A stretch of DNA of 64,000 nucleotides from Candidatus Latescibacterota bacterium. GTDB taxonomy: Bacteria; Latescibacterota; UBA2968. The notes under the pieces were generated by a model. That model was not told where the DNA came from. It did not search any database and was given only the letters and a program-made list of their open reading frames with translations. Position numbers and translations under genes: made by a program. The stretch lies in assembly GCA_965204745.1 (NCBI GenBank), contig OZ242010.1, positions 3,168,001 through 3,232,000 of the forward strand, read 5' to 3'. This document shows, one piece after another, positions 1,986-64,000 of the stretch (position 1 is its first letter; every line of letters begins with the position of its first letter).

Positions 1986-2072
1986 GAAGGGAGACGGGAG
2001 AGGTGAGAGGCAAGAGGCAAGAGGTGAGAGGCAAGAGGGACGCCCAACGCCCAACCGTTCAAGCAATCAGTT
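1975..2072. repeat. Purine-rich heptamer repeat (GAGAGGC/GAGGCAA) plus conserved tail; inverted copy at ~17966-18050
   Basis: cgcccaacgcccaaccgttcaagcaatcagt is nearly the reverse complement of actgattgctcaaacggttgggcgttggg at 17966. Confidence 0.75.
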
Positions 2073-21846: not shown

Positions 21847-23130
21847 TCAAGTCCGAAGGGCCGCGGGGTCGTTGATGCGGGCGTTTTGGGGTGCGGGTAC
21901 CCAGCCGGATAGGAGGGGGTCGTCGGTCGTTTCCATCCACGTTGCGAGGCGGCGACGCATGGCGTTTCGGTCGTGTTGATAGGCCGGATCCAGGGCGAGG
22001 TTGTGGGTCTCAAATGGGTCGAAAATCAAATCGTAGAGTTGCTCGCGGGGTTGGGTTTTCTGCCGCCATCCCCGTTCGAGAAAATAGGATTTGCTCGGGC
22101 TGCCATCGCAGTTGATGTCGCCCGGGCGCGCTGTGGGGTACCAGTGGCGGATGTATTTCCACTTCTTGGTGCGGACGGCCCGTTGCGGATCGTAATAGCT
22201 GTGGTAGTTGATTTCTGCAAAAATTTCTTCGTGGATCTCATCCGCTTCGCCGCGAACAAGGGGCAGGAGGGATTTGCCTTGCAACCAATCCGGATGGTCG
22301 ATGCCGATGAGGTCGCACAGCGTGGGGAACAGATCGACTTGGGAAACCATGCCGTCGATCACCTCGCCGCCCAAAAAACCCGGCCCGCGCATGATGAGCA
22401 AGACCCCGATGCCGTGATCCGTGAGGTTGCACTTCATCATCGGAAATGCAATGCCGTGGTCCGTGGTGCTGATGACGAGGGTGTTGTCCGCGAGCCCGGC
22501 CCGGTCGAGGGCGTTGAGCACGCGCCCGACTTCGGTGTCGAGGATTCGGACGCAGGTTTTGTAGGCCGCGGTGTCGTAGCGCGTTTCCGGCGTGTCCGGC
22601 AAGGGTGCAGGGGGCATGCAGTAGCGCGGGTCGTCTTCCGGTCCCGGTTCTGGAAAACTGCGATGCGTGAGCGTGTATCCCACGTCGAGGAAAAAGGGCT
22701 TGTCGTGCGCCCGATTGAGAAATGCAATGGCCGCGTCCGAGGTCGCCCGCTGATCTTTGGCCGTATCGAACATGTGGTCATAACCGATTTCGGCCGGGTC
22801 CGCCGATGGCGGACGCCCCACATGCTGAAACCCGGAAAGCGCGGTCGCGTACCCGGCCCGTTTCAGGGTTTGCACCAAGTGATGGCTGTAATCGTTGAGC
22901 CGAAACCCCCGGTGGGCAAGGCCGAGCATGCCGCAACAGTGGGGCCATTGCCCGGTCAAAAGCGCGGCGCGACTCGGAGAACACGTCGGGTTGGCGCAAA
23001 ACGCTTGCCGAAAGAGCACGCCCTGCTCGGCGAGGGCTTGGAAATTGGGCGTTGGCATGGCGTGTCCGTAAGGCTGGATATAGCGACCCGTGTCGTGCGA
23101 GTGGATGTAGAGGATATTGGGTTGGGACAT
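21847..23130 (-). CDS. Cys-type sulfatase
   Basis: PNILYIHSHD, CSPSRAALLTG formylglycine motif, TTDHG, QLYDL..DP.E. Confidence 0.94.
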   Translation of the reverse strand: MSQPNILYIHSHDTGRYIQPYGHAMPTPNFQALAEQGVLFRQAFCANPTCSPSRAALLTGQWPHCCGMLGLAHRGFRLNDYSHHLVQTLKRAGYATALSGFQHVGRPPSADPAEIGYDHMFDTAKDQRATSDAAIAFLNRAHDKPFFLDVGYTLTHRSFPEPGPEDDPRYCMPPAPLPDTPETRYDTAAYKTCVRILDTEVGRVLNALDRAGLADNTLVISTTDHGIAFPMMKCNLTDHGIGVLLIMRGPGFLGGEVIDGMVSQVDLFPTLCDLIGIDHPDWLQGKSLLPLVRGEADEIHEEIFAEINYHSYYDPQRAVRTKKWKYIRHWYPTARPGDINCDGSPSKSYFLERGWRQKTQPREQLYDLIFDPFETHNLALDPAYQHDRNAMRRRLATWMETTDDPLLSGWVPAPQNARINDPAALRT

Positions 23131-23172
23131 GATGGGCTCCTTAAAGGAAGAGGCAAGATACTCTCTTAAAGG

Positions 23173-24180
23173 TCAAGGGGATTGCGGGGCGATTCGATAG
23201 AATTTCTCGCCCTCAAAATCTTGGTCATGCCGCAACATGCCCCAGATTGAATGGAGCAACTTTCGCATCACCGCAACGATAGCCTGCAAAGGTTTCTTGC
23301 CGCGGGCAATGAGTTGGTCATAGAAGGCTTTGACATGGACTTCGTGTCTGATGGCCACCCAGGCAGGCATATAGAGGGCATGGCGGAGGTACTTATTCCC
23401 GGTTTTCGAGATGCGTCTTTGTGGGTTGGCGGTTCCGGATTGTTTGGGTTTGGGATCCAGGCCTGCATGTGCGACCCACTGGGGCGGTTGCATCTCCTCA
23501 GGCAAAAGGGTCAACTCGGCCAAGAGCCGCAAGGCGCTCGTTTGTGCGATGCCAGGCGTCGAGCAGAGGCGTTGGTAGGCGCGCTTGAGGGTCTCATCGT
23601 GCAAAACGAGATCGAGGGCTTGGTCTTCCAAGTATGCAATCCGGCGTTTGAGGTGTCGAATATTCACCTGAATATCGCGTGCGATGCGCCGTGTGCTCAG
23701 GATGTGGTAGCTTTGCGCGTGGTTGCGGCTCTGTTCACTGATGATCACCTGCTTGAGTTGGTCAATGCGTCTGGTGAGGGCTTGCAGTTGAAGCCGTTGC
23801 TCACTCGGCGCTTGCCAAGGCACAAACGGCATGCGCTCGGCATAATCCATGATCAACAACGCATCCTTCGCATCCGTCTTGGCTCGTTGCATGCGGGCTT
23901 GACCGTACTTGCTCATCGCTTTGGGATTGACGACCATGACCTTTGTGTGGCGATGCCGATGCAAGGCCAAGGCCACCCCCAAGCTGTAAAGCCCGGTCGC
24001 TTCGAGGCACACAGAGACCATGTGCCCGCCCTTGGTGAGCCACTTCAGCAACCGCTTATGGGCTTGGGGATCATTGGCAAAGGTCGCTTGCATGACAGCT
24101 TGTCCGGGTCTGGACAGGGCAACAGACAACGTGCGGGCACTGACATCAATGCCGGCGAAAGCGGGTTGAGATTTCGACAT
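23173..24180 (-). CDS. IS110 DEDD recombinase/transposase
   Basis: AGIDVS, CLEATG, KTDAKDA (DEDD); PKQSG catalytic Ser; ISKTGNKYLRHALY. Confidence 0.95.
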   Translation of the reverse strand: MSKSQPAFAGIDVSARTLSVALSRPGQAVMQATFANDPQAHKRLLKWLTKGGHMVSVCLEATGLYSLGVALALHRHRHTKVMVVNPKAMSKYGQARMQRAKTDAKDALLIMDYAERMPFVPWQAPSEQRLQLQALTRRIDQLKQVIISEQSRNHAQSYHILSTRRIARDIQVNIRHLKRRIAYLEDQALDLVLHDETLKRAYQRLCSTPGIAQTSALRLLAELTLLPEEMQPPQWVAHAGLDPKPKQSGTANPQRRISKTGNKYLRHALYMPAWVAIRHEVHVKAFYDQLIARGKKPLQAIVAVMRKLLHSIWGMLRHDQDFEGEKFYRIAPQSP

Positions 24181-24244
24181 GGGGGCCTCCTGTGATGAGG
24201 GGTTGTAAGGGGTCTGGTGTGCGCTCGAGTTCGATCCCGACCAT

Positions 24245-24430
24245 TGACGCCAAGTCTACCGGTCTTGTATATGCAGCCTCAAGGGACTTAGATACTCTTC
24301 GGCATAGACCCGGCGGTCGGGGGGCCTATCTTACCTACAAGGTCATCGCCTTCAAGAGGGGCCGGCCTTCCCCGAGCCGGGCATCAAGATGGCTTATCTC
24401 GATACGAGGGCGCAACTCCTAATTAACCCT
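24245..24430 (-). ncRNA. Putative IS110 bridge RNA (ends approximate)
   Basis: Contains in order target guides CCCCTCT and AGGTAAG, then donor guides AGAGTATCT and ATACAAG, matching the element's own target and donor. Confidence 0.75.
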
Positions 24431-24447
24431 TACTTCCAAGATACAAG

Positions 24448-24670
24448 AGGGGAGACGGGAGAGGGGAGAGGTAAGAAGTGAGAGGTGAGAAGTGAGAGGT
24501 GAGAAGTGAGATGGGATTTTAGCCACGAGCGGGGTACAACTGGCGACAGCCAGTTCAAAGGCACAAAAGGCACAAAAGGCACAAAAGGCACGAGCAGGTA
24601 AAACTGGCGATAGCCAGTTCAAAGGCACAAAAAGTGAGCGATATGTGTAGGGGCGATGCCTCTGTGCTCG
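24448..24670. repeat. Repeat cluster: (GAGAAGT/GAGAGGT)n, (AAAGGCACA)x4 and a dispersed element also found inverted at 48415-48500
   Basis: tttagccacgagcggggtacaactggcgacagcc and gagcgatatgtgtaggggcgatgcc are reverse complements of segments at 48415-48487. Confidence 0.8.
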
Positions 24671-24730
24671 CCCGAAGATACAATAAAGGTGAAAGAACAT
24701 CTCCTCTCTCCGTTGCGGGGCCAGGGATTT

Positions 24731-26143
24731 TTATGACTCGAGATATGCGCGGAGGTGTTTGAGGGCGCGGCCCGTGTCGATTGCGGATCGTGCCTGTCGA
24801 ATTGCATCGCGGGGATCGGGATTGAAACCGAGGAGGTGATCCGTCATCGCCGCGTTGAGTACGATGCGGTCGTACACAGGGCCTTTTTCCCCGGAAAGCG
24901 CGGCCATGCCCAAGGCCGCAAAAGCCTGGGCACTGACCGCTTTGGGGCGCGGGTTTTGCGCGTAGAAAAAGCCGTACGCGGCCGGGTCGATATCGAGGGC
25001 AAATGTTTGATCTGCGCGAAAGCCCTGTGAAAAATTGATGGCATTGCGCCGTTTGTCCGTGGGTTTTCCCAAGCGCAGGGAAAAATGGCTGCTGCCCTCC
25101 TCGCCCTTGATCGCCACCGCAGATGTGAACCCGGTTTCGCGGGCGATCTTCAGCAGGGGGACTTCGTATCCCGAATGGTAGTACCCGATGACCATGTGGT
25201 TGCTGCCGGCGCAGGTGAATAGTTGTTGCGCCTTTTCCGTGGCAGACCACGGGGGGCGTTTGCCGATGTGGGCGCGCAGGTCGCGGGCCGCGTACGCGTT
25301 GGGGGCGTATTCGCGCTGGCTGATGTACGCAAAGCCGATGTCGGGATTTTCGAGGCGTTCTGCGGCTTCTGCGAGTGACAAATTGGTGCGGGCGTTGAGG
25401 GCATTGAGAATCTGCTCGTCGGTCACGCCCCATTTGGGCGGCATGGCATCCACGCCGTGAAGCACAGAGGCTCGCGCGAGGGCCGCGCGCAGGGCCGCGA
25501 CGAACAAGGTGGGTTTGAAATACCGGGTCGAGCCGTTATAGGGCTGACCGAAATGCGTGAGGTTCTCGACCTTTGCCACTCGGACGCATTCGGGCGCGAA
25601 CCCCGAGTGGAGGTACCCGCGCACCTCATCGTAGGATTCGCGGTTCATGCGCTGGCCTATCAATGCGGCTCCTTTGAGGCTACCGCGCACCCGATCCGAG
25701 AGAATCGCTTCGCACATCAGGCGCGTGCGGCGATACGCGAGATGCCCTCCGCGGAGAATGGTCTTCAGCGCGGAAATGACGAGTTGTTCTTCGGGCGATT
25801 CTGCGGGACAGCGATCCGCATAGCCGAAAATGTATTGCAGGTCCGGGGGCAGGTGGGCTTGCAAGCGGTTGCGATAGTGCTGAAACGCATGGTCTTCTGC
25901 CGCGCTCCAACCCGTCTTGGCAGGGTATGCACGCCGCAGGCGCATCGCAGCAAAAAACGCCCCCATCTGCACCGCCGAGACCGGGTGACGCGCCGCGTTT
26001 TGCAGGGTATCGAGGATGGCTTCCAACACGGGTTGCGGTTGCGGGTCATCCGGTTTCACGCCCAAAGGCCGGGATTGCGTGGGGCCTGTACACACACGCG
26101 CTTGGGCTTCGAGGACCAGGGGATTGGGATCGAATTGGGTCAT
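24731..26143 (-). CDS. Anthranilate phosphoribosyltransferase-like (glycosyltransferase family 3, YbiB-type) protein
   Basis: QMGAFFAAMR, GQPYNGSTR, LHGVDAMPPKWG, IGKRPPWSATEK, KGEEGS. Confidence 0.75.
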   Translation of the reverse strand: MTQFDPNPLVLEAQARVCTGPTQSRPLGVKPDDPQPQPVLEAILDTLQNAARHPVSAVQMGAFFAAMRLRRAYPAKTGWSAAEDHAFQHYRNRLQAHLPPDLQYIFGYADRCPAESPEEQLVISALKTILRGGHLAYRRTRLMCEAILSDRVRGSLKGAALIGQRMNRESYDEVRGYLHSGFAPECVRVAKVENLTHFGQPYNGSTRYFKPTLFVAALRAALARASVLHGVDAMPPKWGVTDEQILNALNARTNLSLAEAAERLENPDIGFAYISQREYAPNAYAARDLRAHIGKRPPWSATEKAQQLFTCAGSNHMVIGYYHSGYEVPLLKIARETGFTSAVAIKGEEGSSHFSLRLGKPTDKRRNAINFSQGFRADQTFALDIDPAAYGFFYAQNPRPKAVSAQAFAALGMAALSGEKGPVYDRIVLNAAMTDHLLGFNPDPRDAIRQARSAIDTGRALKHLRAYLES

Positions 26144-26260
26144 AAAAAAACTTATGACGCAAACGCGGCGTTGTCAAGGGAAAGGGAAGACGTGAGATGG
26201 GAGAGGGGAGAAGCAAGAGGGGAGAGGCAAGAGGGGAGAAGGCCACCGCGCTGTTCCTCA

Positions 26261-26342
26261 AGTTGTCAGTTGTCAATGCGAATTAAGAGTAGAAAGCGAG
26301 TAAGAAGCAAGCCGCGGTCAATCATCCAAAGACCTGAACGAG
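26261..26342. repeat. 82-bp inverted repeat, left copy
   Basis: agttgtcagttgtcaatgcgaattaagagtagaaagcgagtaagaagcaagcc...catccaaagacctgaacgag; reverse complement at 34159-34240. Confidence 0.85.
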
Positions 26343-26780: not shown

Positions 26781-29700
26781 TGGAAGTGGGAGTCGGGATA
26801 GAGGCTTCGGATGTAGGGTTCAATGGCTTGAGCGGTCGTGCGCGTGGCAGTTGGCTCGATGACGTTCCCTCTGACGAGGGCCTCGTTCCGGAAGAAGAGG
26901 ACATATCGAATGATCAGGATTATATCAGAGAACAGTCTCACATCGCCATCGCCATCCACATCGAGAATGTTCTGATTGACCAACGTGTCGAGGTAGGGTT
27001 CAATTTCTTGAGCGGTCTTGCGCGTGGCAGTTGGCTCGATGACGTTCCCTCTGAGGAGGGCCTCGTTCCGGAAGAAGAGGACATATCGAATGACCAGGAT
27101 TATATCCGAGAACAATCTCACCCGGCCATCGCCATCCACATCCAAGTTGGCACTCGGGGTTTCGTCATCGGTCAGGGTCAGGGTTACGGGCGAAGGACCG
27201 GTGATGCCTTGGGCGTTGTTTGCGGTTGCAGACACGCTGACCGTCTTCTCGTCCGCCCGGTCGTCGTTGTCCATGGCGGTGATCGTCACGGTGCCTGTGC
27301 TCGTTGTGGTCGTCGCCGCGATGATCAGCGTGTCTGCACTCGATAGCGTGAAGTCGCTCGCAGTCGCAGGGGACACAGGCGTAGCAGAGACCGTGATCGT
27401 CGTGATCGCGCTCGATGGGTGCGATAGGGTCGCCGTGATCGTGGAAACCTCGCCGTTTTCCGAAATCGACGAGGGTGTGAGCACCAACGTCACGGTCGGT
27501 GCTTCGTCATCGTCGGTCGTCGTCACCGGAACGTCCTCGTCCGAAAGGTCGTTGTAGTTGGTATCGCCGCTTGACAGGGCGAGTCGCACCGCCCAGGTGA
27601 CGTCCCCGTCGTCGATGATGTCGTCTTGCCCGGTCACGGTCACGGTTTGTGCCGTGTTATAGCCTGACGTCGTGAAGGTCAGCATCGCAGGCTCAACCCG
27701 CCCCTCGCTCGGGTCTTGGCTCGTCACCGAAATCGTCACCGCCGCCGTGGGTTGCGTCAGCAGGGCCACCGTGAAGGTCGCCGAGCCACCGGCCTCTGTC
27801 GCCTGCCCGGTCACCGCGCTGATGTCCAAGCCGAAATCGTTATCGCGGTTGACCATGTACACGATGATCGCGGAGAGCGCGTCGTAGTTGGTGTCCTGCG
27901 TATCCGTCTGGTTCACCGAAAGGGTGACCGTATAGTTCTGGTTGCCATCGACGGCGGCGGGAGTATCGTCCTGCCCGGTCACGGTCACGGTTTGCGCCGT
28001 GCTCCATGTTGTCGATGAGAAGGTCAGCACCGAGGGCGATACAGTGCCTTCCGTCGTGTCTGAACTGACCACCGAGAGTGCCACGTTCCCCGTCGGCTCG
28101 GAGGCGAGCGTGACCGTGAAGGTCTCTGCCCTGCCCGACTCTGTCGTGTGGAGCCTGACCGTCGTCGTGGTCATCGCCGACACCTCAATCGCCGCCTCGT
28201 CGTCATCGGTGATCGTCAGCGACGTAGCCTGCACGGTGCCCGCGCCGTGGTCGTTCTCCACAGCGGCGGTCTGCACCATCACCGCGTTGTCTGATGCGTC
28301 TATGTCGTTGTCCACGGCGGTGAGTGCCACCGTGTCCGACGCGTTCGCCGTGCTCCCAGCCGCGATGGTGATCGTCGAATCCGACCCCACTGTGTAGGCA
28401 TTCGCCACCGGGCGCACCGTGATCGTTGTCGCCGCGCTCGATGGGTGTGTCAGCGTCGCCGTCACCGTGCTCACGCCGCCGGCCTCCGAGATGGACGCGG
28501 GCGACAGCATTAGTGTCACGTCCGGCGCGGCGTCATCGTCTGTGATCGTCAAAGCCGTGCCGGTCACACTGCCTGCGCCTTGGTCATTGCTCACCGGAAC
28601 AGACACGGTCACGTCGCGATTAGGCGCGTCTTGGGTGTTGTTCACCGCTGTAATGACCACGGTATCCGTCGCGTTCGCCGTACTCCCTGCCGCGATGGTG
28701 ATCGTCGAATCCGACCCCACCGTGTAAGCACCCGCCACCGGGCGCACCGTGATTGTCGTGATCGCGCTCGACCGATGCGACAGCGTCGCCGTGATCGTCG
28801 AAACACCGCCGGTCTCTGCAATCGACGCGGGCGACAGCGTCAGTGCCACATCCGGCGCGGCCTCATCGTCTGTGATCGTCAGGATCACGGCAGACGATAG
28901 CGACGCCCCATTGCCACCTGCCACCGTTGCAGACACGGTCACGCGCTTGTCCGGCGCATCGGTCGTGTCGTTCACCGAGGTGATCGTCACGGCGCCCGTG
29001 CTCGTCGTCACATTCGCCGCGAAGGTCAGCGTGGTCGCGGTCGATAGCGTAAAATCGCCCGCAACCGCAGGGGCCACCGGGGTCGCTGAAACCGTGACCG
29101 TCGTCGCCACGGTTGCAACGCGATCTAGCGTCGCCGTGATCGTGGAAATCTGGGCATTCTCCGTAATTGACGCAGGAGTCAAAACCAACGTCACCTGCGC
29201 CACTTCGTCATCGATAATCGTCAGCGTCGCATCAGTGACCGATCCCGTGCCTATGCTGTTGCCCGCCGTGCTCGACACGGTCACCGTCTTGTTCCCCGAA
29301 GATATGCTGTTGTCCACCGTCCTGATCGTCACGGTGCCCGTGCTCATCGTTTGCCCCGCCGCGACGGTCAGCGTGGCCGGCGTACTCAGCATGTAGTCGC
29401 CCGGAACCGCAGGCGACACAGCCGACGCTGAAACCGTGATCGTCGTCGTCGCGCTCGACGTGTGAGACAGGGTCGCAGTCACGGTCGAGACGCCGCCGTT
29501 CTCTGAAATCGACGCAGGCGATAAAACCATCGTCACGTCCGGCGCAACGTCGTCGTCCGTCAGCGTCAAAGCCGCACCGGTCACACTGCCCACGCCTTGG
29601 CTGTTGTGCGCCACACCGGACACGGTCACGTCGCGATTAGGCGCGTCTTGGGGATTGTTCACCGCTGTGATGACCACAGTGTCCGACGCGTTAATCGTGT

Positions 29701-32700
29701 CCCCGGCCGCGATGGTGATCGTCGTATCCGCCCCCACCGTGTAAGCACCCGCCACAGGACGCACCGTGATCGTCGTCGCCGTGCTCGATGGACGCGATAG
29801 CGACGCCGTGACCGTCGAAACCGCGCCGTTCTCCGAAATCGACGCCGGTGACGCCGCCAACGTCGCTGTCGGTGCAGGGTCGTCGTCGTCCAGCGTCAAA
29901 GTCGCCTCGGTCACACTGCCCACGCCTTGGGCGTTGTCTGCCACAACGGACATGTCCACGTCGCGATTAGGCGCGTCTTGGGTATTGTCCACCGCTGTGA
30001 TGACCACCGTATCCGTCGCGTTCGCCGTGCTCCCGGCTGCAATGGTGATCGTCGAATCCGCTGCCACCGTGTAAGCCCCCGCCACCGGGCGCACCGTGAT
30101 CGTCGTTGCCGCGCTCAACGGGTGTGCCAGCGTCGCGGTCACGGTGCTCATCCCGCCGCTTTCCGAGATCGACGAGGGCGTCAGTGCCAACGTCACTCTC
30201 GCGGGTTGGAACTGAAATTGCACGGTGGTATCCATGCCGGCATACTTCAAGGCCGGATACTGATCCATCGTGCCAAAGGTCCACGGATCGTCGTTGCCGG
30301 GTTGTCCGTCGAGGTTGGCGTTCCAGCCGTAGTAGGTGTCGTTGGTGGTGGCGCCGTAGGTGGTGGGGCTCTGGAGCTCGCTGGCGGTCTTGCCGACAAC
30401 GCCGCTACCGCCGGCACTGGTGGTCTGACCGCTGGTGGAGGTGTCCCAGTGGCTATCGGTCACTGTGCCAGACGAACTGCCCACCAAACCGCCTTTCGTG
30501 CCGGTACCCGTGACTGCGCCTATCGCGTAGCTGGCGGTCACGCTACCGCCGCTCGCGAGTGAACCCACCAACCCGCCGCCCACCGCGCTGCTGTGTCCAG
30601 CGAACACAGAGCCCAGCGCGTAAGACGCCACCACCTCGGTCTGATCGGTCAGCCAACCCACCAACCCGCCAGCCAGCCCGTCACTCGTCACAGACGCAGG
30701 AACCCGCACAGAGACGAGCGCGTAGCTGCTCACAATGCGGTTGCTGCCCGAAGTGCGATAAGACCGACCGACCAAACCACCCACACCCCACCGCGACCCC
30801 GAAACGCGACCCGTCACATAACACGACGAGATGGTGCCACCACCACCTTGATTACCGGCCAGACCACCCACGCGGTCAGCACCGGTCACATTCACATTCA
30901 ACAACCCCAATCCCGAAACATCGCCATCAACTGCATGGAACAATCCTGTATTATGCCGAGACCCCCGGTCGATGAACAAGTGGGAGATCGTCTTGTTGTT
31001 GCCTTTGAACGTGCCGCCGTAAGGCCCCACAGGGTCCCAGCCGGCACCGCCATTCCAGTAGGTGGTGTCTGCTTGGGTGATCGCGCCGTCGTTGTTCTCG
31101 TCAAAGTCCAAGTTGTTGAGCAGTTCGTAGCCGATGCAACCTGTGGAAGGACACCCCTTGCTCGCTGACAAGTTCCCGTTGGGAAAGGCGGCGTTGTAGG
31201 TCATGGCATCACTATCGGCGACGACCCCATCGCCATTGAGATCCCAGCGCATGGCATGCAGTTGGGCCAAGGTCGAGACCTCGAGGAGGCCATCGCTATC
31301 CGTGTCGTAATGCACGGGTTGGGTAGCGAACTGCGCCGTGGTGTCCAGGCCGGCAAACTTCAAGGCCGGATACTGATTCGTCGTGCCAAAGGTCCAGGGA
31401 TCATCATCGTTGGCCCCCGAAGCATCTATGGTCAGATCGTCCCAGTTGGCATAGATGCCGCTCGCAGACGTGACCGATTGTAAGTCGGAGGTCAACTTGC
31501 CCTCCGGCGCAACAGTATCGCTATCATCGGCAATGTCGCTTGTTTGCGTGTCCCAGTAGCTATCGGTCACTGTACCTGAGTTTTCCGCCAGCCCATGCTT
31601 GTGCAGGCAGGCCCCCGTTACTGAGCCTGTTGAGTAGCTCGACGCTATCGTCGCACCGGCACCATTGGCACCCACCAACCCGCCGCCAGTGGCCCACGGC
31701 CCCGACTGATTGCACACCACAGACGCCATGGCGTAACTCGCCACGATGTACGACCCCCTCTGAGTGGCGCCCGCCAACCCGCCGACATTGGTGTTCGCCG
31801 TGACCGACCCCGTGACGTAACTCGCCGCGATCCGACCCTTGTTCAGACCCACCAGCGCGCCCACCGTGCCCTGACCCGTATTGATCACCGCGTTGACCAA
31901 CCCCAAAGAGCGGATGTGGGCAGTGGTGTCCGTGCTTGCGAAAAATCCCGAAAAGTTGACGTAGCGGTTGATGTACAGGTGGGAGATCCTCTTGCCGTTG
32001 CCCTCAAACGTGGCGGTGTATGGGGAGGTGTTGCTACTGCCGATGGGTGCCCAGCCCGCGCCGCCATTCCAGTAGGTAGTGTCTGCTGAGGTGATCGCGC
32101 CATCGCCGTTTTCGTCAAAGTCCAAGTTGTTGAGCAGTTCGTAGCCAGTGCAGGTGCCGGAAGGGCAACCCATCCGGCCGCTACTGGTGGTGTTGCGGCC
32201 GGGAAAGGCGGCGCCATAATCGGCGTGGGTAGCGTCGCCATTGCCGTTGAGGTCGTGGCGAATGGCGTTGAGTTGCGCCAAGGTGGTGATATCGATGAGG
32301 CCATCGCTATCCGTGTCGTAATTCCTGGGCTGGGCAACGAACTGCGCGGTGGTGTCCAGGCCTGCATACTTCAACACAGGATACTGATCCGCTTTGCCAA
32401 ATGTCCACGGATTGTCGTTGCCGGTCTGTCCGTCGATGTTGATGTTCCAGGTGGCGTAGATGCCGGTGTAGCCGGTGGGAGTTTGGAGAGTGCTGGTGGT
32501 CTGACCCGTGCCGCCTGCGCTGGTGGTCTGACCGCTGGTTTCGGTGTCCCAGTAGCTACTGACCACGCTAGCTGAGCCAAAGCCTGTGACTGAAGATCCT
32601 GCTAAACCGCCGATAGTTGATGCTGTTCCGCTGGACCGGCTGACCCGGCCGATAGAGTAGGAGTTTGTTATATTTCTTGCTCCGCCTGCCAGACCGCCGA

Positions 32701-52776: not shown

Positions 52777-55700
52777 AATACGTCTCGGTGGTGATCACAT
52801 TGTTTTGCGCGAGCCATCTCGTTGCGGCAGAGACGCGGCTGACCCTTGCCGAGACCGTCGGCGCGCCGGGGGATACCGTGGCCGTGCCCATTGTCCTGTC
52901 GAACACGCAGGCCATTTCCGGCATCAGCTTCTCCCTCGAATACGCCCCATCGGCGATCTCGTTCCTGCGAATCGAACAAACCGACATTGCCCTGACGCCT
53001 TTCGTGCGCGAAAACGCGCCCCAGATCCACTTCGTTTTTTTGGATACAATATCCGCCCAAGTGCTGGCAACAGGGGAACATGAACTGGGTCACTTAATGT
53101 TTGCCATCAAGGAAAACGCGGCCGTCGGCAAGGCCGCGCTGACGCTCAGCAACTTGGATTTGACAGACGAAAACCTTCCCCCCGAGCGCGTGCAGGGCAT
53201 TGCAGAATCCGCCGGCATTTGGATTACGACAAACGGGCTTCGGCTGGGCACTGCGGAGTGGGTATCCCAAAAAAAGGTCAAAGTGGATTTGAACCTCGTA
53301 ACCGACACCCCGATTTCAGGCATCCAATTCTCGCTGCTATGGCACGCGACCACGCTGGCGTATGACACCACATCCACAACCACATCTTGGCGGGTTTTCA
53401 GCCATGAACCCGATGAGCGCAGCGTGCGACTTGTCGCCGCGGATTTCACAGGCGAGCGAGCGTTCAGCAGCGATACCGCGCCCGTGGTTTCCGTGCATTT
53501 TCGCTCTCTCCCGAATCAAAACGATCCGCAGATTCTCGGGCTCGAACTCGGCGATGTGCTGATGACGGATCGCGCTGGCGAAAGCGTGCCCGTTCTCTCG
53601 AGCAATGGCGAGATCGACACGGCCCTGCGCCCTGCGCGTCCAGCGGTTTCTTTTGACGACTTGCACATCGAAGAAATCCTCTCTGACCCCGCGTCGAGCG
53701 AACAGGGCGACGCCAACCGCGACGGCACGCGCCATAGCCGAGAGGACGAATTTATCGAACTGGTCAATCGCGGCGATCAACCCATTGACCTCTCCTGCTT
53801 TTTGCTCTCGGACGACGATGTGTCCCCCGACAAAATGTTTGAATTTCCCGACAGCACAATCATCGCGCCCGGAGAACGCATCGTCCTATTCGGCGGCGGT
53901 CAACCGCAAGGCATTCCCGGGCAGGTCTATACAGACGATGGTAGCATTGGCAATGGCCTGACCAACTCGGGCGACATCATCGTGCTCATCGATCCAGCGT
54001 CGAGAGACACGCTACTCATCGTCGCGTTTGAATCGAATGCGAAAGATCAATCCCTCGTTCAACAGGACGGAACATGGGTCGGTCACAGCACCTTATACAC
54101 CGGGCGTTTTTCTCCGGGCGCGGCGTCACAACCGATTGATACATCTGATAATGATGAGTCAGATGAGAACGCGGATGAAAACGCAGGCGATGAACCAACG
54201 GATGAACCAACGGATGAACCAACGGATGAACCAACGGATGAACCAACGGATGGCAACGCGAATGGGAACCCGGGCGATCAACCAACCGATGCGAAAACGA
54301 ATCGGGATATCCGAGGATTGCACATCGAAGAAATTCACGCTGATCCCGCGTCGAGCGAACAGGGCGATGCCAACCGCGACGGCACGCGCCACAGCCGAGA
54401 GGACGAATTTATCGAACTGGTCAATCGCGGCGATCAACCCATTGACCTCTCCGGCTATCTGCTCTCGGACGACGATGTGGCCCTCGACAAAATGTTTGAA
54501 TTTCCCGACAGCACCATGATCGCGCCCGGAGAACGCATCGTCCTATTTGGCGGGGGTCAACCGCAGGGCATTCCCGGGCAGGTCTATACAGACGATGGTA
54601 GCATAGGCAATGGGCTGACCAATTCGGGCGATGTCATCGTGCTCATCAACCCGGCGACGAGGGACACGCTGCTCAGCGTCGCGTATCAATCCAAAGCAAA
54701 AGATCAATCCCTCGTTCAACAGGACGGAGCGTGGATCGGTCACAGCACCTTATACACCGGGCGTTTCTCCCCGGGCGCGGCGTCTCAACCGATTGATACA
54801 TCGGATAGTGACAGCGATGAATCAACCGATACGAGTGGCGAAGCAACCGATGAGAAAACGAGCGTAAATATCCAAGGGTTACACATCGAAGAAATCCACG
54901 CGGCCCCTGCGTCGAGCGAACAAGGCGATGCAAATGGCGATGGGGTGCGCCACGGTCAAGAAGATGAATTTATCGAACTGGTCAATCGCGGCGATCAACC
55001 CATTGACCTCTCCGGCTATCTGCTCTCGGACGACGATGTCGCGCTCAATGACATGTTCAGATTTCCCGATAGCACCACAATCGCGCCCGGAGAACGCATC
55101 GTCCTATTCGGCGGCGGTCAACCGCAGGGCATTCCCGGACAGGTCTATACAGACGATGGTTGCATAGGCAACTGCTTGATCAACGCGGGCGACGTCATTG
55201 TGCTCATCGATCCAACTGCGGGTGATACTTTGCTCGCTGTCGCGTTTGAATCGAATGCGAAAGATCAATCCCTCGTTCAGATGGACGGAGCGTGGGTCGG
55301 CCACAGCACCTTATACACCGGGCGTTTCTCCCCGGGCGCGGCGTCTCAACCGATTGATACATCGGATAATGGCGAGTCAGATGAAAACGCGGATGAAAAC
55401 GCAGGCGATGAACCAACGGATGGCAACGCGAATGAGAACCCGGGCGATCAACCAACCGATGCGAAAACGAATCGGGATATCCGAGGATTGCACATCGCAG
55501 AAATCCACGCGGACCCCGCGTCGAGCGAACAAGGCGATGCAAATGGCGATGGGGTGCGCCACGGTCAAGAAGATGAATTTATCGAACTGGTCAATCGCGG
55601 CGATCAACCCATTGACCTCTCCGGCTATCTGCTCTCGGATGACGATGTGGCCCTCGACAAAATGTTTGAATTTCCCGACAGCACAATTATCGCGCCGGGA

Positions 55701-60459: not shown

Positions 60460-60479
60460 GTGTCGTTAAGGGAATCGCG

Positions 60480-60972
60480 TCAGGCCACCGCATCCAACAC
60501 GCGCTGAAATGCCTCCAGATCATCCGCTTGCACCGCTACACGATACAACCGCTTGAGCCTCGGCAAATTGTCGATGGTCGCAATGCGACCGGCGAACTGG
60601 CCGGCCACACCCGCATCAAAGCGAATCGCCAACGCTTCTCGGATGCTCTCTTGGATACCACGCCTAATGCCCTGCTCGATGCCCTGCTCGATGAACTGTT
60701 CCTCGAACTCTTCCTGGATCCGTTTCTTAAGATATTGGGTAAACAATGACTCACGCATAATCGCGTCCATAAAACCCTCCTGTGAAAGAATCTGCGCCAT
60801 CGATCCGCACGCGAATGAGGCTATCGGTCTGGCACGTTTCCACCTTGGGGAGTTCGGTGGCGAGGACTTCTTCAACTTCAATTTCGACATCCTCGCGTCC
60901 GAGTGCCAAGCGGATGAGGTCTTGCGGGTAGAGGTGAATCAACTGCTTGGGAATCGTATCGTATTCTGCCAT
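60480..60972 (-). pseudogene. Internally deleted Rpn/YhgA-like gene (copy E); intact C-terminal ORF 60480-60770
   Basis: MAEYD N-terminus frameshifts after RIDG; AGGAGG RBS and ATG of MDAIMRES retained. Confidence 0.85.
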
Positions 60973-60998
60973 GGGGCACCTCCTGACAGGGAATCGCG

Positions 60999-61467
60999 TT
61001 AGGCTTCCGCATCCAACACGCGCTGAAAGGCCGCCAGATCATCCGCTTGCACCGCTGCACGATGCAACCGCTTGAGCCTCGGCAAATCGTCGATAGCCGC
61101 AATGCGCGCGGTGAACTGACCGGCAACGACCACATCAAAGCGAATCGCCAACGCTTCTCGGATGCTCTCTTGGATGCCCTGCTTGATTCCCTGCTCAATG
61201 CCGCGCTCAATGCCGCGTTCCTCGAGGTACTGGATAAACGATGACTCACGCATAATCGCGTCCATAAAACCCTCCTGTGAAAGAATCCGCGCCATCGATC
61301 CGCACGCGAATCACGCTATCGGCCAGGCGCGTTTCCACCTTGGGGAGTTCGGTGTCGAGGACTTCTTCAACTTCAATTTCGACATCCTCGCGTCCGAGTG
61401 CCAAGCGGATGAGGTCTTGCGGGTAGAGGTGAATCAACTGCTTGGGAATCGTATCGTATTCTGCCAT
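60999..61467 (-). pseudogene. Internally deleted Rpn/YhgA-like gene (copy D); intact C-terminal ORF 60999-61265
   Basis: Same ~437-bp deletion junction as copy E; internal RBS+ATG retained. Confidence 0.85.
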
Positions 61468-61493
61468 GAGACGCCTCCTGACAGGGAATCGCG

Positions 61494-62663
61494 TTAGGCT
61501 TCCGCATTCAACACGCGCTGAAAGGCCGCCAGATCATCCGCTTGCACCGCTGCACGATGCAACCGCTTGAGCCTCGGCAAATCGTCGATGGTCGCAATGC
61601 GAGCGGCGAACTGACCGGCCATCCCCACATCAAAGCGAATCTCCAACACGTCGAGGATAGCGGCAATGGTATGTTCTCTACCCCCGCGCTCAATGCCCTG
61701 CTCGATGCCCTGCTCGATGCCCTGCTCGATGCCCTGCTCGATGCCCTGCTCGATTCCCTGCTCGATGCCCTGCTCAATGCCCTGCTCGATGCCCTGCTCG
61801 ATGCCCTGCTCGATGCCCTGCTCGATGCCCTGCTCGATGCCCTGCTCGATTCCCTGCTCGATTCCCTGCTCAATGCCGCGCTCGATTCCCTGCTCAATGC
61901 CGCGCTCAATGCCCTGCTCAATGCCCTGCTCAATGCCCTGCTCAATGCCCTGCTCAAGAAACTGTTCCTTGAACTGCTCCTCGAGGTACTGGGCAAACGA
62001 TGACTCACGCATAATCGCGTCCATAAAACCCTCCTGGGAAAAAATTCGGTTGATGGTGGCAGGATCATACGCCAACCCACTCAAGACCGCCAAGCTACCC
62101 AAATAATTCGCCTTGTCTGCCTCATCCAACGAAACCGAATCGCCCTTGCGAACACACGCACGCAACCAATCTTCGGAATCCATCCCCACAGGCGGCTTCA
62201 TCAATGGCGCGAAAGGAAGCAAGCCGGCCTGGTCACCTTCAAGAATGCCGCGGCCGTCCAGCTCGCTCAACCGAAGCACCTTGTAGCGCACCAGCACGGG
62301 AAAGTCCGCATGATCTTGGCGGAAAAATCCCTTATCGCTCCGCCCGGCATTGGGACGCAGATAGATGACAAAGGAATAGACCGGCAAGTCATACTGCTCG
62401 ATGAGACAGATGATATAGGAAGCCATGCGACGAGCCATATTCGCGCTATCCGAGGTTTGAAATTCGATGTGGATCAAGGCTTCCTCGCCATCGATCCGCA
62501 CGCGAAGGAGGCTATCGACCAGGCGCGTTTCCACCTTGGGGAGTTCGGTATCGAGGATTTCTTCAACTTCAATTTCGACATCCTCGCGTCCGAGTGCCAA
62601 GCGGATGAGGTCTTGCGGGTAGAGGTGCATCAACTGTTTGGGAATCGTATCGTATTCTGCCAT
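61494..62663 (-). CDS. Rpn-family (YhgA-like) PD-(D/E)xK nuclease, copy C, ~23 EQGI repeats
   Basis: RLVDSL..HIEFQ catalytic motif, MARRM..Y, LPFAPL, EQGI tract, IRF C-terminal domain. Confidence 0.9.
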
Positions 62664-62689
62664 GGGACGCCTCCTGACAGGGAATCGCG

Positions 62690-63643
62690 TTAGGCTTCCG
62701 CATCCAACACGCGCTGAAAGGCCGCCAGATCATCCACTTGCACCGCCGAGCGAAGCAACCGCTTGAGCCTCGGCAAATCGTCGATAGCCGCAATGTGACC
62801 GGCGAACTGACCGGCAACGGCCGGATTAAAGCGAATCTCCAACACGTCGAGGATGTCTTCAACCGCTCGTTCTCTGACTCCCTGCTCAATGCCCTGCTCA
62901 ATGCCCTGCTCAATGCCCTGCTCAATGCCCTGCTCAAGAAACTGTTCCTTGAATTGTTCCTTGAGGTATTGGGCAAACGATGACTCACGCATAATCGCGT
63001 CCATAAAACCCTCCTGGGAAAAAATTCGGTTGATGGTGGCAGGATCATACGCCAACCCACTCAAGACCGCCAAGCTGCCCAAATAATTCGCCTTGTCTGC
63101 CTGATCCAACGAAACCGAATCGCCCTTGCGAACACACGCACGCAACCAATCTTCGGAATCCATCCCCACAGGCGGCTTCATCAAGGGCGCGAAAGGAAGC
63201 AAGCCGGCCTGGTCGCCTTCAAGAATGCCGCGCCCGTCCAGCTCGCTCAACCGAATCACCTTGTAGCGCACCAGCACGGGGAAGTCCGCATGATCTTGGC
63301 GGAAAAATCCCTTATCGCTCCGCCCGGCATTGGGACGCAGATAGATGACAAAGGAATAGACCGGCAAGTCATACTGCTCGATGAGACGGATGATATAGGA
63401 AGCCATGCGACGAGCCATATTCGCGCTATCCGAGGTTTGAAATTCGATGTGGATCAAGGCTTCCTCGCCATCGATCCGCACGCGAATAAGGCTATCGACC
63501 AGGCGCGTTTCCACCTTGGGGAGTTCGGTATCGAGGATTTCTTCAACTTCAATTTCGACATCCTCGCGTCCGAGTGCCAAGCGGATGAGGTCTTGCGGGT
63601 AGAGGTGCATCAACTGCTTGGGAATCGTATCGTATTCTGCCAT
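62690..63643 (-). CDS. Rpn-family (YhgA-like) nuclease, copy B, 5 EQGI repeats
   Basis: Near-identical N-terminal domain to copy C; divergent C-terminus. Confidence 0.9.
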   Translation of the reverse strand: MAEYDTIPKQLMHLYPQDLIRLALGREDVEIEVEEILDTELPKVETRLVDSLIRVRIDGEEALIHIEFQTSDSANMARRMASYIIRLIEQYDLPVYSFVIYLRPNAGRSDKGFFRQDHADFPVLVRYKVIRLSELDGRGILEGDQAGLLPFAPLMKPPVGMDSEDWLRACVRKGDSVSLDQADKANYLGSLAVLSGLAYDPATINRIFSQEGFMDAIMRESSFAQYLKEQFKEQFLEQGIEQGIEQGIEQGIEQGVRERAVEDILDVLEIRFNPAVAGQFAGHIAAIDDLPRLKRLLRSAVQVDDLAAFQRVLDAEA

Positions 63644-63669
63644 GAGACGCCTCCTGACAGGGAATCGCG

Positions 63670-64000
63670 TTAGGCTTCCGCATCCAACACGCGCTGAAAG
63701 GCCGCCAGATCATCCGCTTGCACCGCTGCACGATGCAACCGCTTGAGCCTTGGCAAATCGTCGATGGTCGCAATGCGAGCGGCGAACTGACCGGCAACGA
63801 CCACATCAAAGCGAATCTCCAACGCTTCTCGGATGCTCTCTCGAATGCCTCGTTCAATGCCCTGCTCGATTCCCTGCTCGATTCCGCGCTCGATTCCCTG
63901 CTCGATTCCCTGCTCGATTCCCTGCTCGATTCCCTGCTCGATTCCCTGCTCGATTCCCTGCTCGATTCCCTGCTCGATTCCCTGCTCGATTCCCTGCTCA
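63670..64000 (-). CDS. Rpn-family gene copy A, 3' part only (runs off window), at least 13 EQGI repeats
   Basis: 12-nt gattccctgctc repeats, then IRESIREALEIRFDVVVAGQF...VLDAEA*. Confidence 0.85.
   Translation of the reverse strand, partial: EQGIEQGIEQGIEQGIEQGIEQGIEQGIEQGIEQGIERGIEQGIEQGIERGIRESIREALEIRFDVVVAGQFAARIATIDDLPRLKRLHRAAVQADDLAAFQRVLDAEA

What the first reader, a model, noticed from the sequence alone, without database searches (positions are those of the whole stretch)
23151..24455. IS110 with a fully readable bridge RNA programmed against the genome's purine-rich intergenic repeats
Seen (minus strand): joining the ends gives the donor AGAGTATCTTGTAT, and the empty target reconstructs as CTCCCCT-CT-TGCCT. 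The non-coding left end holds, in the expected order, CCCCTCT (24355-24361, left target guide), AGGTAAG (24330-24336, right target guide with one G-U wobble), AGAGTATCT (24290-24298, left donor guide) and ATACAAG (24264-24270, right donor guide). An identical unoccupied target, AGGCAAGAGGGG, lies at 26225-26236 and a near match at ~2028. Established: IS621 uses a bridge RNA, a CT core and a donor of the form ACAGTATCTTGTAT, and targets REP sequences. Inference: this is a new bridge recombinase ortholog that uses heptamer repeats as safe-harbour targets.
Basis: partly seen in the sequence, partly recalled or inferred. Interest (0 to 1): 0.7.

Follow-up and report, generated by a model that had tools for sequence, protein, structure and literature searches.

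The report
Multicopy bridge-RNA insertion sequence targeting heptamer repeats
This is a 1.29-kb jumping gene of the known IS110 "bridge RNA" type that has spread to 52 copies in one bacterial genome by inserting between two particular 7-base repeat units, and its variant copies carry altered RNA guides that match their altered insertion sites.

Summary
Window 23156-24447 (minus strand) is a 1290-bp IS110-family element. It has a 335-aa DEDD+Tnp recombinase related to the solved bridge recombinases ISCro4 (E 7.9e-41) and IS621 (E 1.9e-36). Its 265-nt left end holds all four guides at the stated coordinates.

The genome holds 52 full-length copies, 51 with an intact ORF. Forty-five copies share guides CCCCUCU/AGGUAAG, and 37 of these sit in CCCCT-CT-T(A/G)CCT. 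Seven copies have changed guides, and five of them fit their own flanks better than the majority guides (label shuffle 0 of 10,000). Orthologues in two related genomes carry other guides that match their own flanks.

A 16-sequence alignment supports two stem-loop modules with the guides in internal loops (94.6% of cells paired, 16 of 30 pairs compensatory, 0 of 500 shuffles). A TTGACC-17-TATCTT promoter forms only across the circle junction.

Perfect-match sites are mostly filled (20 occupied, 5 empty). Sites needing a U·G wobble are mostly empty (17 occupied, 65 empty).

No RNA or circle data were available. Verdict: a real and probably recently active new member of a known kind. It offers a natural retargeting series, but is not categorically new.

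The parts
23156..24447 (-). Whole insertion sequence including both copies of the CT core. It is 1290 bp when counted with one core.
   Evidence: Boundaries come from 52 genomic copies whose similarity ends at these bases. One contig of run X5 skips exactly 1290 bases here.
24448..24454 (-). Left target half CTCCCCT. The last five bases (24452-24448), together with the core, pair with the LTG.
   Evidence: (flank logo).
24446..24447 (-). CT core, left copy.
   Evidence: CT is present at both junctions in 51 of 52 copies as aligned. The one exception (5198937) is a register shift caused by a 1-nt insertion. The donor and target share 5 bases here (TCTTG), so the exact crossover point is assigned by homology with IS621.
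24441..24445 (-). Right donor half TGTAT, the first bases of the element.
24438..24443 (-). Candidate -10 box TATCTT of the circle-junction promoter.
   Evidence: TTGACC-17-TATCTT, 9 of 12, spans the junction only in the circular form. No such site exists with the integrated flank.
24240..24431 (-). Predicted bridge RNA, about 190 nt. Both ends are approximate: the 5' end is inferred from the -10 box and the 3' end from the last supported helix.
   Evidence: There are no RNA data.
24318..24374 (-). Target-binding module. Outer stem 24374-24364 pairs with 24326-18. Inner hairpin 24352-24349 pairs with 24342-24339. The internal loops lie between them.
   Evidence: Helices 1 and 2: 96.5% and 100% of cells paired, with 3 pairs showing changes on both sides.
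24355..24361 (-). Left target guide (LTG) CCCCUCU. It has the same sense as the left target plus core.
   Evidence: It changes to CGCCUCU, UGCCUCU or UCCCUCU in variant copies, whose flanks change correspondingly.
24330..24336 (-). Right target guide (RTG) AGGUAAG. It is complementary to CT-TACCT and pairs with this copy's CT-TGCCT through one U·G wobble.
   Evidence: It changes to AAGUAAG or AGGUGAG in variants with flanks CTTACTT or CTCACCT.
24328..24329 (-). Handshake guide AU, 3' of the RTG. It can pair with donor positions 7 and 6 (T, A).
   Evidence: Read using the definition in PMC11208158. Invariant in all 16 aligned sequences.
24249..24314 (-). Donor-binding module. Outer stem 24314-24300 pairs with 24261-24249. 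Inner hairpin 24288-24285 pairs with 24278-24275.
   Evidence: Helices 3-5: 13 of 17 pairs have changes on both sides.
24290..24298 (-). Left donor guide (LDG) AGAGUAUCU, identical to the last 9 bases of the element plus core.
   Evidence: 51 of 52 copies match perfectly. Copy 1297021 has one mismatch.
24264..24270 (-). Right donor guide (RDG) AUACAAG, complementary to CT-TGTAT.
24262..24263 (-). Handshake guide AC, 3' of the RDG. The A can pair with target position 7 (T). The C does not pair with position 6 (C).
   Evidence: Read. Orthologues whose target has C at position 7 carry G here (G016, L077).
23173..24180 (-). Recombinase gene, 335 aa. It has a DEDD RuvC-like domain and a Tnp domain. 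Catalytic residues are D12, E60, D103, D106 and S248.
23171..23176 (-). Candidate -35 box TTGACC. It overlaps the recombinase stop codon.
23158..23164 (-). Left donor half AGAGTAT, the last bases of the element.
23156..23157 (-). CT core, right copy.
23151..23155 (-). Right target half TGCCT.
24446..24516 (-). Heptamer array into whose last unit boundary the element is inserted.
   Evidence: period 7, 10.1 copies.
26225..26236 (-). Unoccupied target CCCCTCTTGCCT inside another heptamer array.
2029..2040 (-). Near-target TCCCTCTTGCCT, with one mismatch to the majority LTG.

Best explanation
This is an autonomous IS110-family insertion sequence of the IS621 type. Its left end encodes a bridge RNA of about 190 nt.

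Proposed mechanism, by analogy with IS621 (inferred, not observed here):
1. The element leaves as a circle.
2. Joining the right and left ends builds a sigma-70-type promoter (TTGACC in the right end, TATCTT in the left end). This promoter transcribes the bridge RNA and the recombinase gene.
3. The donor-binding loop (AGAGUAUCU and AUACAAG) holds the circle junction AGAGTAT-CT-TGTAT.
4. The target-binding loop (CCCCUCU and AGGUAAG) holds the boundary between a CTCCCCT heptamer and a CTT(A/G)CCT heptamer.
5. The DEDD/Ser recombinase exchanges strands at the CT core.

What is shown here: the anatomy, the homology, the target specificity across 52 copies, the guide-target covariation within and between genomes, and the covariation of the RNA helices.

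What is inferred: transcription, circle formation, RNA-protein binding and the chemistry.
For: **Protein.** Pfam PF01548 (4.6e-23) and PF02371 (6.6e-20). Sequence matches to ISCro4 (9t56, E 7.9e-41) and IS621 (8wt6, E 1.9e-36) over nearly the full length. D12, E60, D103, D106 and S248-G249 align with IS621 D11, E60, D102, D105 and S241-G242 (residue roles from PMC11208158).

**Copies.** There are 52 full-length copies: 8 at 99.77% identity or more, 39 at 95.7-96.8%, and 5 at 87.8-89.2%. 51 of 52 have an intact 335-aa ORF. All 57 PF01548 matches in the genome belong to this family.

**Targets.** Of 45 copies with guides CCCCUCU/AGGUAAG, 20 have perfectly matching flanks and 17 have a single U·G wobble. 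The other 8 deviate.

**Covariation within the genome.**
- Guides CGCCUCU/AAGUAAG go with flanks CGCCTCT (3 of 4; the fourth needs a G·T wobble) and CTTACTT (3 of 4).
- Guides UCCCUCU/AGGUGAG go with flanks TCCCTCT/CTCACCT, both perfect.
- Shuffling guide labels among the copies gives a penalty of 29.5 observed against a mean of 46.9 and a minimum of 36. This was reached in 0 of 10,000 shuffles.

**Covariation between genomes.**
- G018: 18 copies with CGCCUCU/GGGAG. The left target has no true mismatch in 12 of 18 and at most one in 18 of 18. The right target has none in 16 of 18.
- G016: 7 copies. Left target 3 of 7 with no mismatch, right target 6 of 7.
- Mean mismatches with a copy's own guides are 0.44 (G018) and 0.86 (G016). 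With this genome's majority guides they are 3.33 and 2.43.
- L075 (59% aa identity): the LTG AAAUAGUCU equals its flank.

**RNA structure.** Measured on 16 sequences: 94.6% of cells paired, 16 of 30 pairs with changes on both sides, 0 of 500 shuffles reaching this, and 26-53% paired when the partners are slid. The guide columns are variable in the first module and nearly invariant in the second. PMC11208160 describes the same pattern for IS110 ncRNAs.

**Promoter.** A promoter spans only the circle junction. No sigma-70-like site lies upstream of the RNA in the integrated state.

**Site occupancy.** Perfect sites: 20 occupied, 5 empty. Wobble sites: 17 occupied, 65 empty.
Against: - **Nothing observed directly.** No transcript, circle or recombination event was seen. 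No RNA run was listed, and the DNA runs are assembled contigs that cannot show rare circles.
- **No Rfam match** at E<=1.
- **Modest fold stability.** The left end's MFE is not exceptional: z = -1.49, and 12 of 200 shuffles fold as well.
- **Guides partly paired in MFE folds.** In single-sequence folds, parts of the guides pair with each other: the LTG core end with the RTG, and LDG GUAU with RDG AUAC. The 'guides in loops' picture therefore rests on the consensus structure and on analogy with the solved IS621 complex.
- **Deviant flanks.** 8 of 45 majority copies have flanks with 1-3 true mismatches, and 6 of 45 fit a minority guide pair better.
- **One misfit copy.** Copy 602757 fits its own guides worse than the majority's (3.0 against 2.0).
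- **RDG mismatch in relatives.** The G016 and G018 RDG (AGACAAG) has one mismatch to their TGTAT end.
- **Non-independent alignment.** The 16 aligned sequences are not independent: 7 come from this genome and 5 from two relatives.
- **Weak promoter in some relatives.** The junction promoter scores below 9 of 12 in G018 and L077.
Confidence: 0.88

Rival explanations
1. The element is a true bridge-RNA IS but is now a fossil. The copies are relics of a past burst and no longer move.
For: No circle junction occurs in the assembly (0 matches) or in the laid contigs. 39 of the 52 copies are a 95.7-96.8% set relative to this copy, which could be old.
Against: 51 of 52 ORFs are intact. Eight copies are at least 99.77% identical at different loci. 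34 copies share an identical left end. The guides still match ends and flanks. One contig of another run joins the flanks with exactly 1290 bases missing, so occupancy may vary between strains. This last point is weak: only 25 letters lie on the shorter side and the flank is repetitive.
Confidence: 0.08
2. The internal matches to the ends are ordinary subterminal repeats bound by the transposase as DNA. No RNA guide is involved.
For: The LDG and RDG are copies of the element's own ends, as subterminal repeats would be. No RNA evidence is available.
Against: The LTG and RTG match the flanking target, not the element, and they change together with the target in variant copies and in other genomes. 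The helices around the guides keep pairing through compensatory changes, which points to selection on an RNA fold. The protein is homologous to two recombinases solved in complex with bridge RNA (PMC11208158 passages).
Confidence: 0.02
3. The shared flanks arise because copies spread by homologous recombination or segmental duplication between heptamer arrays, not by guided insertion.
For: Heptamer arrays are abundant, with 1195 period-7 rows, and could support recombination. Copy 602757 looks chimeric.
Against: Beyond about 14-21 bases, the flanks of the 52 copies are unrelated to each other. The junctions are exact to the base in every copy. Variant guides track variant flanks.
Confidence: 0.02

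Closest known systems
IS621 of Escherichia coli (IS110 family; bridge recombinase, PDB 8wt6)
   Same: - Two-domain DEDD+Tnp recombinase with all five catalytic residues aligned.
- CT core.
- A left-end RNA with a target-binding and a donor-binding internal loop, and the same strand logic.
- Handshake guide AU.
- A promoter rebuilt at the circle junction.
- Insertion into a repeated intergenic sequence.
   Different: - The protein is distantly related (129 bits by phmmer).
- The effective LTG is 7 nt (5 plus core), against 9 in IS621.
- The RTG is 7 nt (core plus 5), against 4 in IS621.
- The target is a boundary between two tandem heptamer variants, not a REP palindrome.
- The host's relatives are titled Latescibacterota MAGs.
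- There are 52 copies in three or more guide classes in one genome.
ISCro4 transposase (PDB 9t56)
   Same: It is the best-scoring solved relative (E 7.9e-41, residues 7-332 aligned).
   Different: Only the protein sequence was compared. Its RNA and target were not examined here.
ISPpu10 / ISPpu9 of Pseudomonas putida (IS110 family, REP-targeting)
   Same: These are multicopy elements that insert into copies of one intergenic repeat. They have the P_junc hybrid promoter and tolerate G·U or G·T wobbles and distal LTG mismatches (passages of 10.64898/2026.03.19.712850). Here the off-consensus left targets differ at the two distal LTG positions (TACCT against CCCCT).
   Different: ISPpu10 is reported to need a target stem-loop as well as base pairing. 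The heptamer target here has no evident hairpin, but this was not tested.
IS1111 subgroup / seekRNA elements
   Same: They share the same recombinase superfamily.
   Different: From recall, these carry the guide RNA downstream of the recombinase gene. Here only 14 non-coding bases (23172-23158, the stop codon ending at 23173) lie between the ORF and the right core, and all guides are upstream.

Membership tests
IS110 family, IS621-type bridge recombinase element | N-terminal DEDD RuvC-like domain (PF01548). | tested here: met
   E 4.6e-23, 82.2 bits against a cut-off of 29, residues 9-151.
IS110 family, IS621-type bridge recombinase element | C-terminal Tnp domain (PF02371) with the conserved serine. 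| tested here: met
   E 6.6e-20, residues 203-287. S248-G249 aligns with IS621 S241-G242 (chain numbering is offset by +2).
IS110 family, IS621-type bridge recombinase element | Catalytic D, E, D, D residues. | tested here: met
   D12, E60, D103 and D106 align with IS621 D11, E60, D102 and D105 (residue roles from PMC11208158 passages).
IS110 family, IS621-type bridge recombinase element | Scarless insertion around a short core, present once in the target and at both junctions, with no terminal inverted repeats. | tested here: met
   CT lies at both junctions in 51 of 52 copies as aligned; the exception is a register shift. Donor and target share TCTTG, so the core is assigned by homology. Terminal inverted repeats were not searched for formally; the two ends as read are not inverted copies of each other.
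IS110 family, IS621-type bridge recombinase element | Long non-coding left end that folds into a 5' stem-loop plus two stem-loops with internal loops. | tested here: met
   The left end is 265 nt. The two modules are supported by covariation. The 5' stem-loops are predicted by MFE only and are not conserved in G018.
IS110 family, IS621-type bridge recombinase element | LTG and RTG pair with opposite strands of the target, and LDG and RDG with the donor. Each includes the core. | tested here: met
   Strand rule from PMC11208160. All four in order by chance: 0 of 50,000 shuffles.
IS110 family, IS621-type bridge recombinase element | Guides covary with natural insertion sites. | tested here: met
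   Within the genome, 0 of 10,000 label shuffles reach the observed fit. Between genomes, own guides give 0.44-0.86 mean mismatches and foreign guides 2.43-3.33.
IS110 family, IS621-type bridge recombinase element | Handshake guides 3' of the RTG and RDG. | tested here: inconclusive
   The position-7 pairs fit: AU with the donor, and A with target T. G occurs where the target has C in G016 and L077. The second RDG-side base does not pair. Read by eye.
IS110 family, IS621-type bridge recombinase element | Sigma-70-type promoter rebuilt at the circle junction. | tested here: met
   TTGACC-17-TATCTT, 9 of 12, only across the junction. It is also present in G016 but scores below threshold in G018 and L077. 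This is a consensus match, not evidence of function.
IS110 family, IS621-type bridge recombinase element | A circular intermediate and an expressed bridge RNA that binds the recombinase and directs recombination. | not testable with these tools
   No RNA run was listed. The DNA runs are contigs only, and no back-joint was seen.
IS1111 subgroup (guide RNA in the right end) | A long non-coding right end carrying the guide RNA (feature recalled, not taken from a call). | tested here: not met
   The right end has only 14 non-coding bases after the stop codon. The guides lie upstream.

The most novel reading that the evidence does not exclude
The IS family and the genome's composite heptamer-tailed repeats may form one co-evolving system.

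(a) Co-resident IS lineages have re-tuned their target-binding loops to different junctions between heptamer variants. This would be natural reprogramming that partitions landing sites within one genome and between species.

(b) A small non-coding element of about 180 copies begins with the IS's own left-end bases (CT-TGTATCTT) and ends in a heptamer tail. It may be a non-autonomous partner, moved or seeded by the same recombinase (for example by half-match recombination), that creates new landing pads.

Part (a) is largely shown here. Part (b) is speculative: the left flanks of the small element are too diverse to be simply LTG-guided.
Probability: 0.1. Interest if true: 0.7.

Novelty: new member of a known kind. 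Interest (0 to 1): 0.4.

Why it matters
The mechanism is already established for IS621 and its relatives, so the value lies in the natural data set.

- One closed genome holds 52 copies in four guide classes, with matching changes in their insertion sites. Two sister genomes hold further guide pairs.
- This is an unengineered retargeting series for a compact (335 aa, about 190 nt RNA) bridge recombinase with a long 7-nt RTG.
- The occupancy figures give an in-genome estimate of how much a single U·G wobble costs: 20 of 25 perfect sites are filled, against 17 of 82 wobble sites.
- The data also show that bridge-RNA elements can specialise on the boundary between two variants of a tandem heptamer, and not only on REP palindromes.
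- For genome annotation, this accounts for about 67 kb of repeats in this genome.

Tried and rejected
**Searches that found nothing or were not available**
- Rfam scan of 22800-24800 at E<=1: no family matched.
- Sequencing runs: no RNA holder was listed, and all 24 runs are kept as contigs.
- Laying X1, X2, X4 and X5 showed no back-joint (circle). It showed one 1290-base skip in X5, at depth 41 with only 25 letters on the shorter side, in repetitive flanks. This is too weak to count as an empty-site proof.
I therefore could not check whether the protein already carries a public name.
- Supplements of PMC11208160 were not available. They list IS110 orthologues and target motifs, and this element may already be in those tables.

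**Literature checks**
- Two searches found no paper on IS110 elements in tandem heptamers: 'IS110 / tandem repeat / heptanucleotide' and 'Latescibacter / sponge / transposase / repeat'. Only the listings were read. This does not show that nothing is in print.
- The word 'wobble' with IS110 and bridge RNA occurs in 3 papers. Passages of one were read.

**Ideas tested and dropped**
- That the 180-copy small element is inserted by the same LTG. Its left 7-mers are diverse: CCCCTCT in 20 of 180.
- That another IS110 family in the genome moves it. All 57 PF01548 matches belong to this IS.
- That the LTG extends past the core. The following UG matches TG of the target, and it is CG in copy 1297021 whose target begins with C. 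This rests on one case, and G018 lacks the base.

**Script and submission failures.** One search stopped after two loci. One search had a regular-expression error that was corrected.

**Not attempted.** Protein folding, complex prediction and the large protein searches were not run, because family membership was already clear.
Full report
**What is there.** On the minus strand, window 23156-24447 holds a 1290-bp element (counted with one CT). Its left junction reads CTCCCCT-CT-TGTAT and its right junction AGAGTAT-CT-TGCCT. The only long ORF in the right frame is 23173-24180, 335 aa. It carries Pfam DEDD_Tnp_IS110 (4.6e-23) and Transposase_20 (6.6e-20). By sequence it matches two solved bridge recombinases: ISCro4 (9t56, E 7.9e-41) and IS621 (8wt6, E 1.9e-36). 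In the IS621 alignment, D12, E60, D103, D106 and S248-G249 fall on IS621 D11, E60, D102, D105 and S241-G242. The chain numbering is shifted by two residues. Passages of Hiraizumi et al. 2024 name these as the catalytic residues (PMC11208158).

**The four guides.** Their strand logic follows Durrant et al. 2024 (PMC11208160, passages). LTG and LDG have the sense of the top strand and include the core. RTG and RDG are complementary to core plus right half.
- The effective LTG is 7 nt, meaning 5 plus core. The two bases before it do not match.
- The RTG is 7 nt, longer than the 4 nt of IS621.
- The LDG is 9 nt and the RDG 7 nt.
- In 50,000 shuffles of the left-end interior, the four never occurred together in order.
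- The two bases after the RTG (AU) can pair with donor positions 7 and 6. The base after the RDG (A) can pair with target position 7. These are the 'handshake' positions defined in PMC11208158.

**Copies in the genome.** The window lies in a single-contig genome of 5.48 Mb.
- BLAST finds 77 matches, of which 52 are full length.
- Relative to this copy, 8 are at least 99.77% identical, 39 are 95.7-96.8%, and 5 are 87.8-89.2%.
- 51 of 52 keep the 335-aa ORF; one stops at 262 aa.
- All 57 PF01548 matches in the genome are at these copies or their fragments.
- Every copy is bounded at the same bases. Beyond about two heptamers, the flanks are unrelated to each other.

**Target specificity.** The guides were extracted from each copy and compared with that copy's own flanks. 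Forty-five copies carry CCCCUCU/AGGUAAG. Their flanks are:

| Left flank | Right flank | Copies | Fit |
|---|---|---|---|
| CCCCTCT | CTTACCT | 20 | perfect |
| CCCCTCT | CTTGCCT | 17 | one U·G wobble |
| TACCTCT | CTTACCT | 4 | two distal LTG mismatches |
| CCCCTCT | CTCCCGT | 2 | three RTG mismatches |
| CCCCTCT | CTTGCCC | 1 | one mismatch plus a wobble |
| CCCCTCT | CTTACTT | 1 | one G·T wobble |

The target is therefore the boundary between a CTCCCCT unit and a CTT(A/G)CCT unit of a tandem heptamer array. The core CT is the first two bases of the second unit. The flank logo shows CT recurring every 7 bases on both sides.

Uninterrupted 12-mers in the genome number 5 for CCCCTCTTACCT and 65 for CCCCTCTTGCCT. 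So 20 of 25 perfect sites are occupied, against 17 of 82 wobble sites. Tolerance of wobbles and of distal LTG mismatches has been reported for ISPpu10 and IS621 (passages of 10.64898/2026.03.19.712850).

**Natural retargeting.** Seven copies carry other guides.
- Four have CGCCUCU/AAGUAAG. Three of these lie after CGCCTCT and one after CACCTCT (a G·T wobble). Three lie before CTTACTT and one before CTTACCT.
- One has UCCCUCU/AGGUGAG and sits in TCCCTCT/CTCACCT, both perfect.
- Two have UGCCUCU/AAGUAAG. One fits its flanks with a single wobble. The other (602757) fits badly, and its flanks are exactly those expected for the UCCCUCU/AGGUGAG class.

Five of the seven fit their own guides better than the majority pair, one ties and one is worse. 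Conversely, 6 of the 45 majority copies fit a minority pair better. Shuffling guide labels among the 52 copies never reached the observed fit: 29.5 observed, mean 46.9, minimum 36, 0 of 10,000.

**Relatives.**
- By DNA, the element is found in 2 of 20 other genomes of the genus (G016 at 83%, G018 at 79%). It is found in 1 of 16 genomes of the sister family (G036, about 69% in parts).
- A protein-based scan returned 29 loci. These were copies in records titled as Latescibacterota MAGs, plus single loci at 59%, 51%, 48% and 46% identity in Latescibacterota, Gammaproteobacteria, Gemmatimonadota and Longibacter records.
- G018's 18 copies all have CGCCUCU/GGGAG and lie in (C/T)(G/A)CCT-CT-CCC. These are also heptamer arrays, but a different junction. 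The left target has no true mismatch in 12 of 18 and at most one in 18 of 18. The right target has none in 16 of 18.
- G016's 7 copies have UCC(U/C)CCU with AGAAAAG or AGGAAAG, and lie before CT-TTTCT (6 of 7 without mismatch).
- Mean mismatches with a copy's own guides are 0.44 and 0.86. With this genome's majority guides they are 3.33 and 2.43.
- In L075 the 9-nt LTG equals the 9 bases at its left junction.
- The donor ends and donor guides stay almost constant throughout. PMC11208160 reports the same for the second loop of IS110 RNAs.

**RNA structure.** I aligned the region spanning both modules from 16 distinct sequences: 7 from this genome, 2 from G016, 3 from G018, and one each from G036, L075, L077 and L078.
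- RNAalifold gives two successive stem-loop modules.
- The four weak pairs between the core-binding ends of LTG and RTG were removed. The remaining 30 pairs then form standard pairs in 94.6% of cells, and 16 pairs show changes on both sides.
- None of 500 column shuffles reaches any of the five measures. Sliding the partners by 1-3 columns drops pairing to 26-53%.
- The guides fall in the internal loops between an outer stem and an inner hairpin in each module.

Caveats:
- The sequences are related to each other.
- The single-sequence fold is not unusually stable (z = -1.49).
- MFE folds pair parts of the guides with each other. This is expected, because both guides of a loop cover the same core and the donor halves are partly palindromic.
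- Rfam has no matching family.

**Promoter.** TTGACC (23176-23171, overlapping the stop codon) and TATCTT (24443-24438) come to lie 17 bases apart only when the right end is joined to the left end. The combined match is 9 of 12. With the integrated flank there is no such site. G016 has the same arrangement, while G018 and L077 score lower. The scan of the integrated locus finds no sigma-70-like site upstream of the RNA. This matches the junction promoter described for IS621 and ISPpu10. It is a consensus match only.

**Context.**
- Period 7 is the commonest tandem-repeat period in the genome, with 1195 rows covering 42 kb.
- The CT-rich heptamers often form the tail of composite intergenic repeats.
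- At this locus, the upstream gene's stop (24731) and the sulfatase start (23130) are 1600 bases apart. The interval is filled by one such composite repeat, its heptamer tail and the IS.
- In G016 the same two genes are 17 bases apart. The IS is in the same orientation as both genes and ends 25 bases before the sulfatase ATG.
- 'Safe harbour' is therefore plausible as a general description of repeat targeting, but it is not demonstrated for this copy.

**What could not be shown.** No RNA run holds the element. The DNA runs are assemblies, which do not keep rare circles. Transcription, circle formation and recombination remain inferred from homology. Recent preprints argue that IS621 and a Caloranaerobacter IS110 keep the donor copy, and that half-matched substrates recombine (abstract of 10.64898/2026.08.31.748434; passages of 10.1101/2025.10.25.684509). 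High copy number and one-sided off-target flanks, as seen here, are what those models would predict. I did not test this.

**Verdict.** This is a new, well-preserved and probably recently active member of the IS621-type bridge-RNA insertion sequences. Three features stand out: tandem-heptamer junction targeting, a long RTG, and several co-resident guide classes that track their sites. It is not a new kind of system.

Noticed in passing
window about 24530-24690 (minus); about 180 places in the genome: A small non-coding repeat begins with CT-TGTATCTT, the same 10 bases as the IS left junction. It continues with a GC hairpin, modular 9-mer and about 30-mer units, a GGCTAAAATCCCAT block and a heptamer tail. 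G018 has a version whose hairpin arms differ on both sides but still pair. Its left 7-mers are diverse (CCCCTCT in 20 of 180), so it is not simply placed by the IS's LTG.
   Followed up: partly
window 26239-26275 (minus) and many genomic sites: A second leader type precedes CT-rich heptamer arrays. It consists of (CTGACAA)n, then a conserved stretch of about 25 nt ending GGTGGCCTT, then the heptamers. Of the 98 loose matches (up to 4 substitutions) only a minority show this architecture; many lie in unrelated sequence. Period-7 arrays are the commonest tandem repeats in the genome, with 1195 rows. Their origin and function are unexplained.
   Followed up: partly
window 23131-24730; L085 (G016): In G016 the orthologous upstream gene and the sulfatase gene are 17 bp apart. 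Here 1600 bp of repeat plus IS separate them. The insertion may affect co-transcription of the sulfatase gene.
   Followed up: partly
G000:C1:602757-604088 (L023): This copy has guides UGCCUCU/AAGUAAG that do not fit its flanks (TCCCTCT / CTCACCT). Those flanks fit the guides of copy 1297021 perfectly. Its first bases after TGTATCTTGG also differ from all other copies. It was either inserted by a bridge RNA supplied in trans, or later recombined with another copy.
   Followed up: partly
G000:C1:1121583-1124187: Two copies (99.9% and 96.1% identical to this one) lie head to tail, with a single heptamer CTTACCT between their cores. The second was inserted into the unit that directly follows the first.
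   Followed up: no
window 23153/24444; run X5: One assembled contig (depth 41) of another run joins the two flanks with exactly 1290 bases missing. This suggests an unoccupied allele, or a similar array elsewhere. Only 25 letters lie on the shorter side.
   Followed up: no
L034, L038, L042 (G036): This is a more distant relative (about 69% DNA identity in parts). Its right flanks are similar GC-rich sequences in all three copies. Two of the three left junctions read AT where CT is expected. Its LTG ends in AU, while its RTG ends in AG. A mixed core was not examined further.
   Followed up: no
window 28327-30196, 54189-56070, 60469-63999: There are long tandem repeats of 330 and 495 bases, and several period-12 arrays of up to 22 copies. 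None was examined.
   Followed up: no
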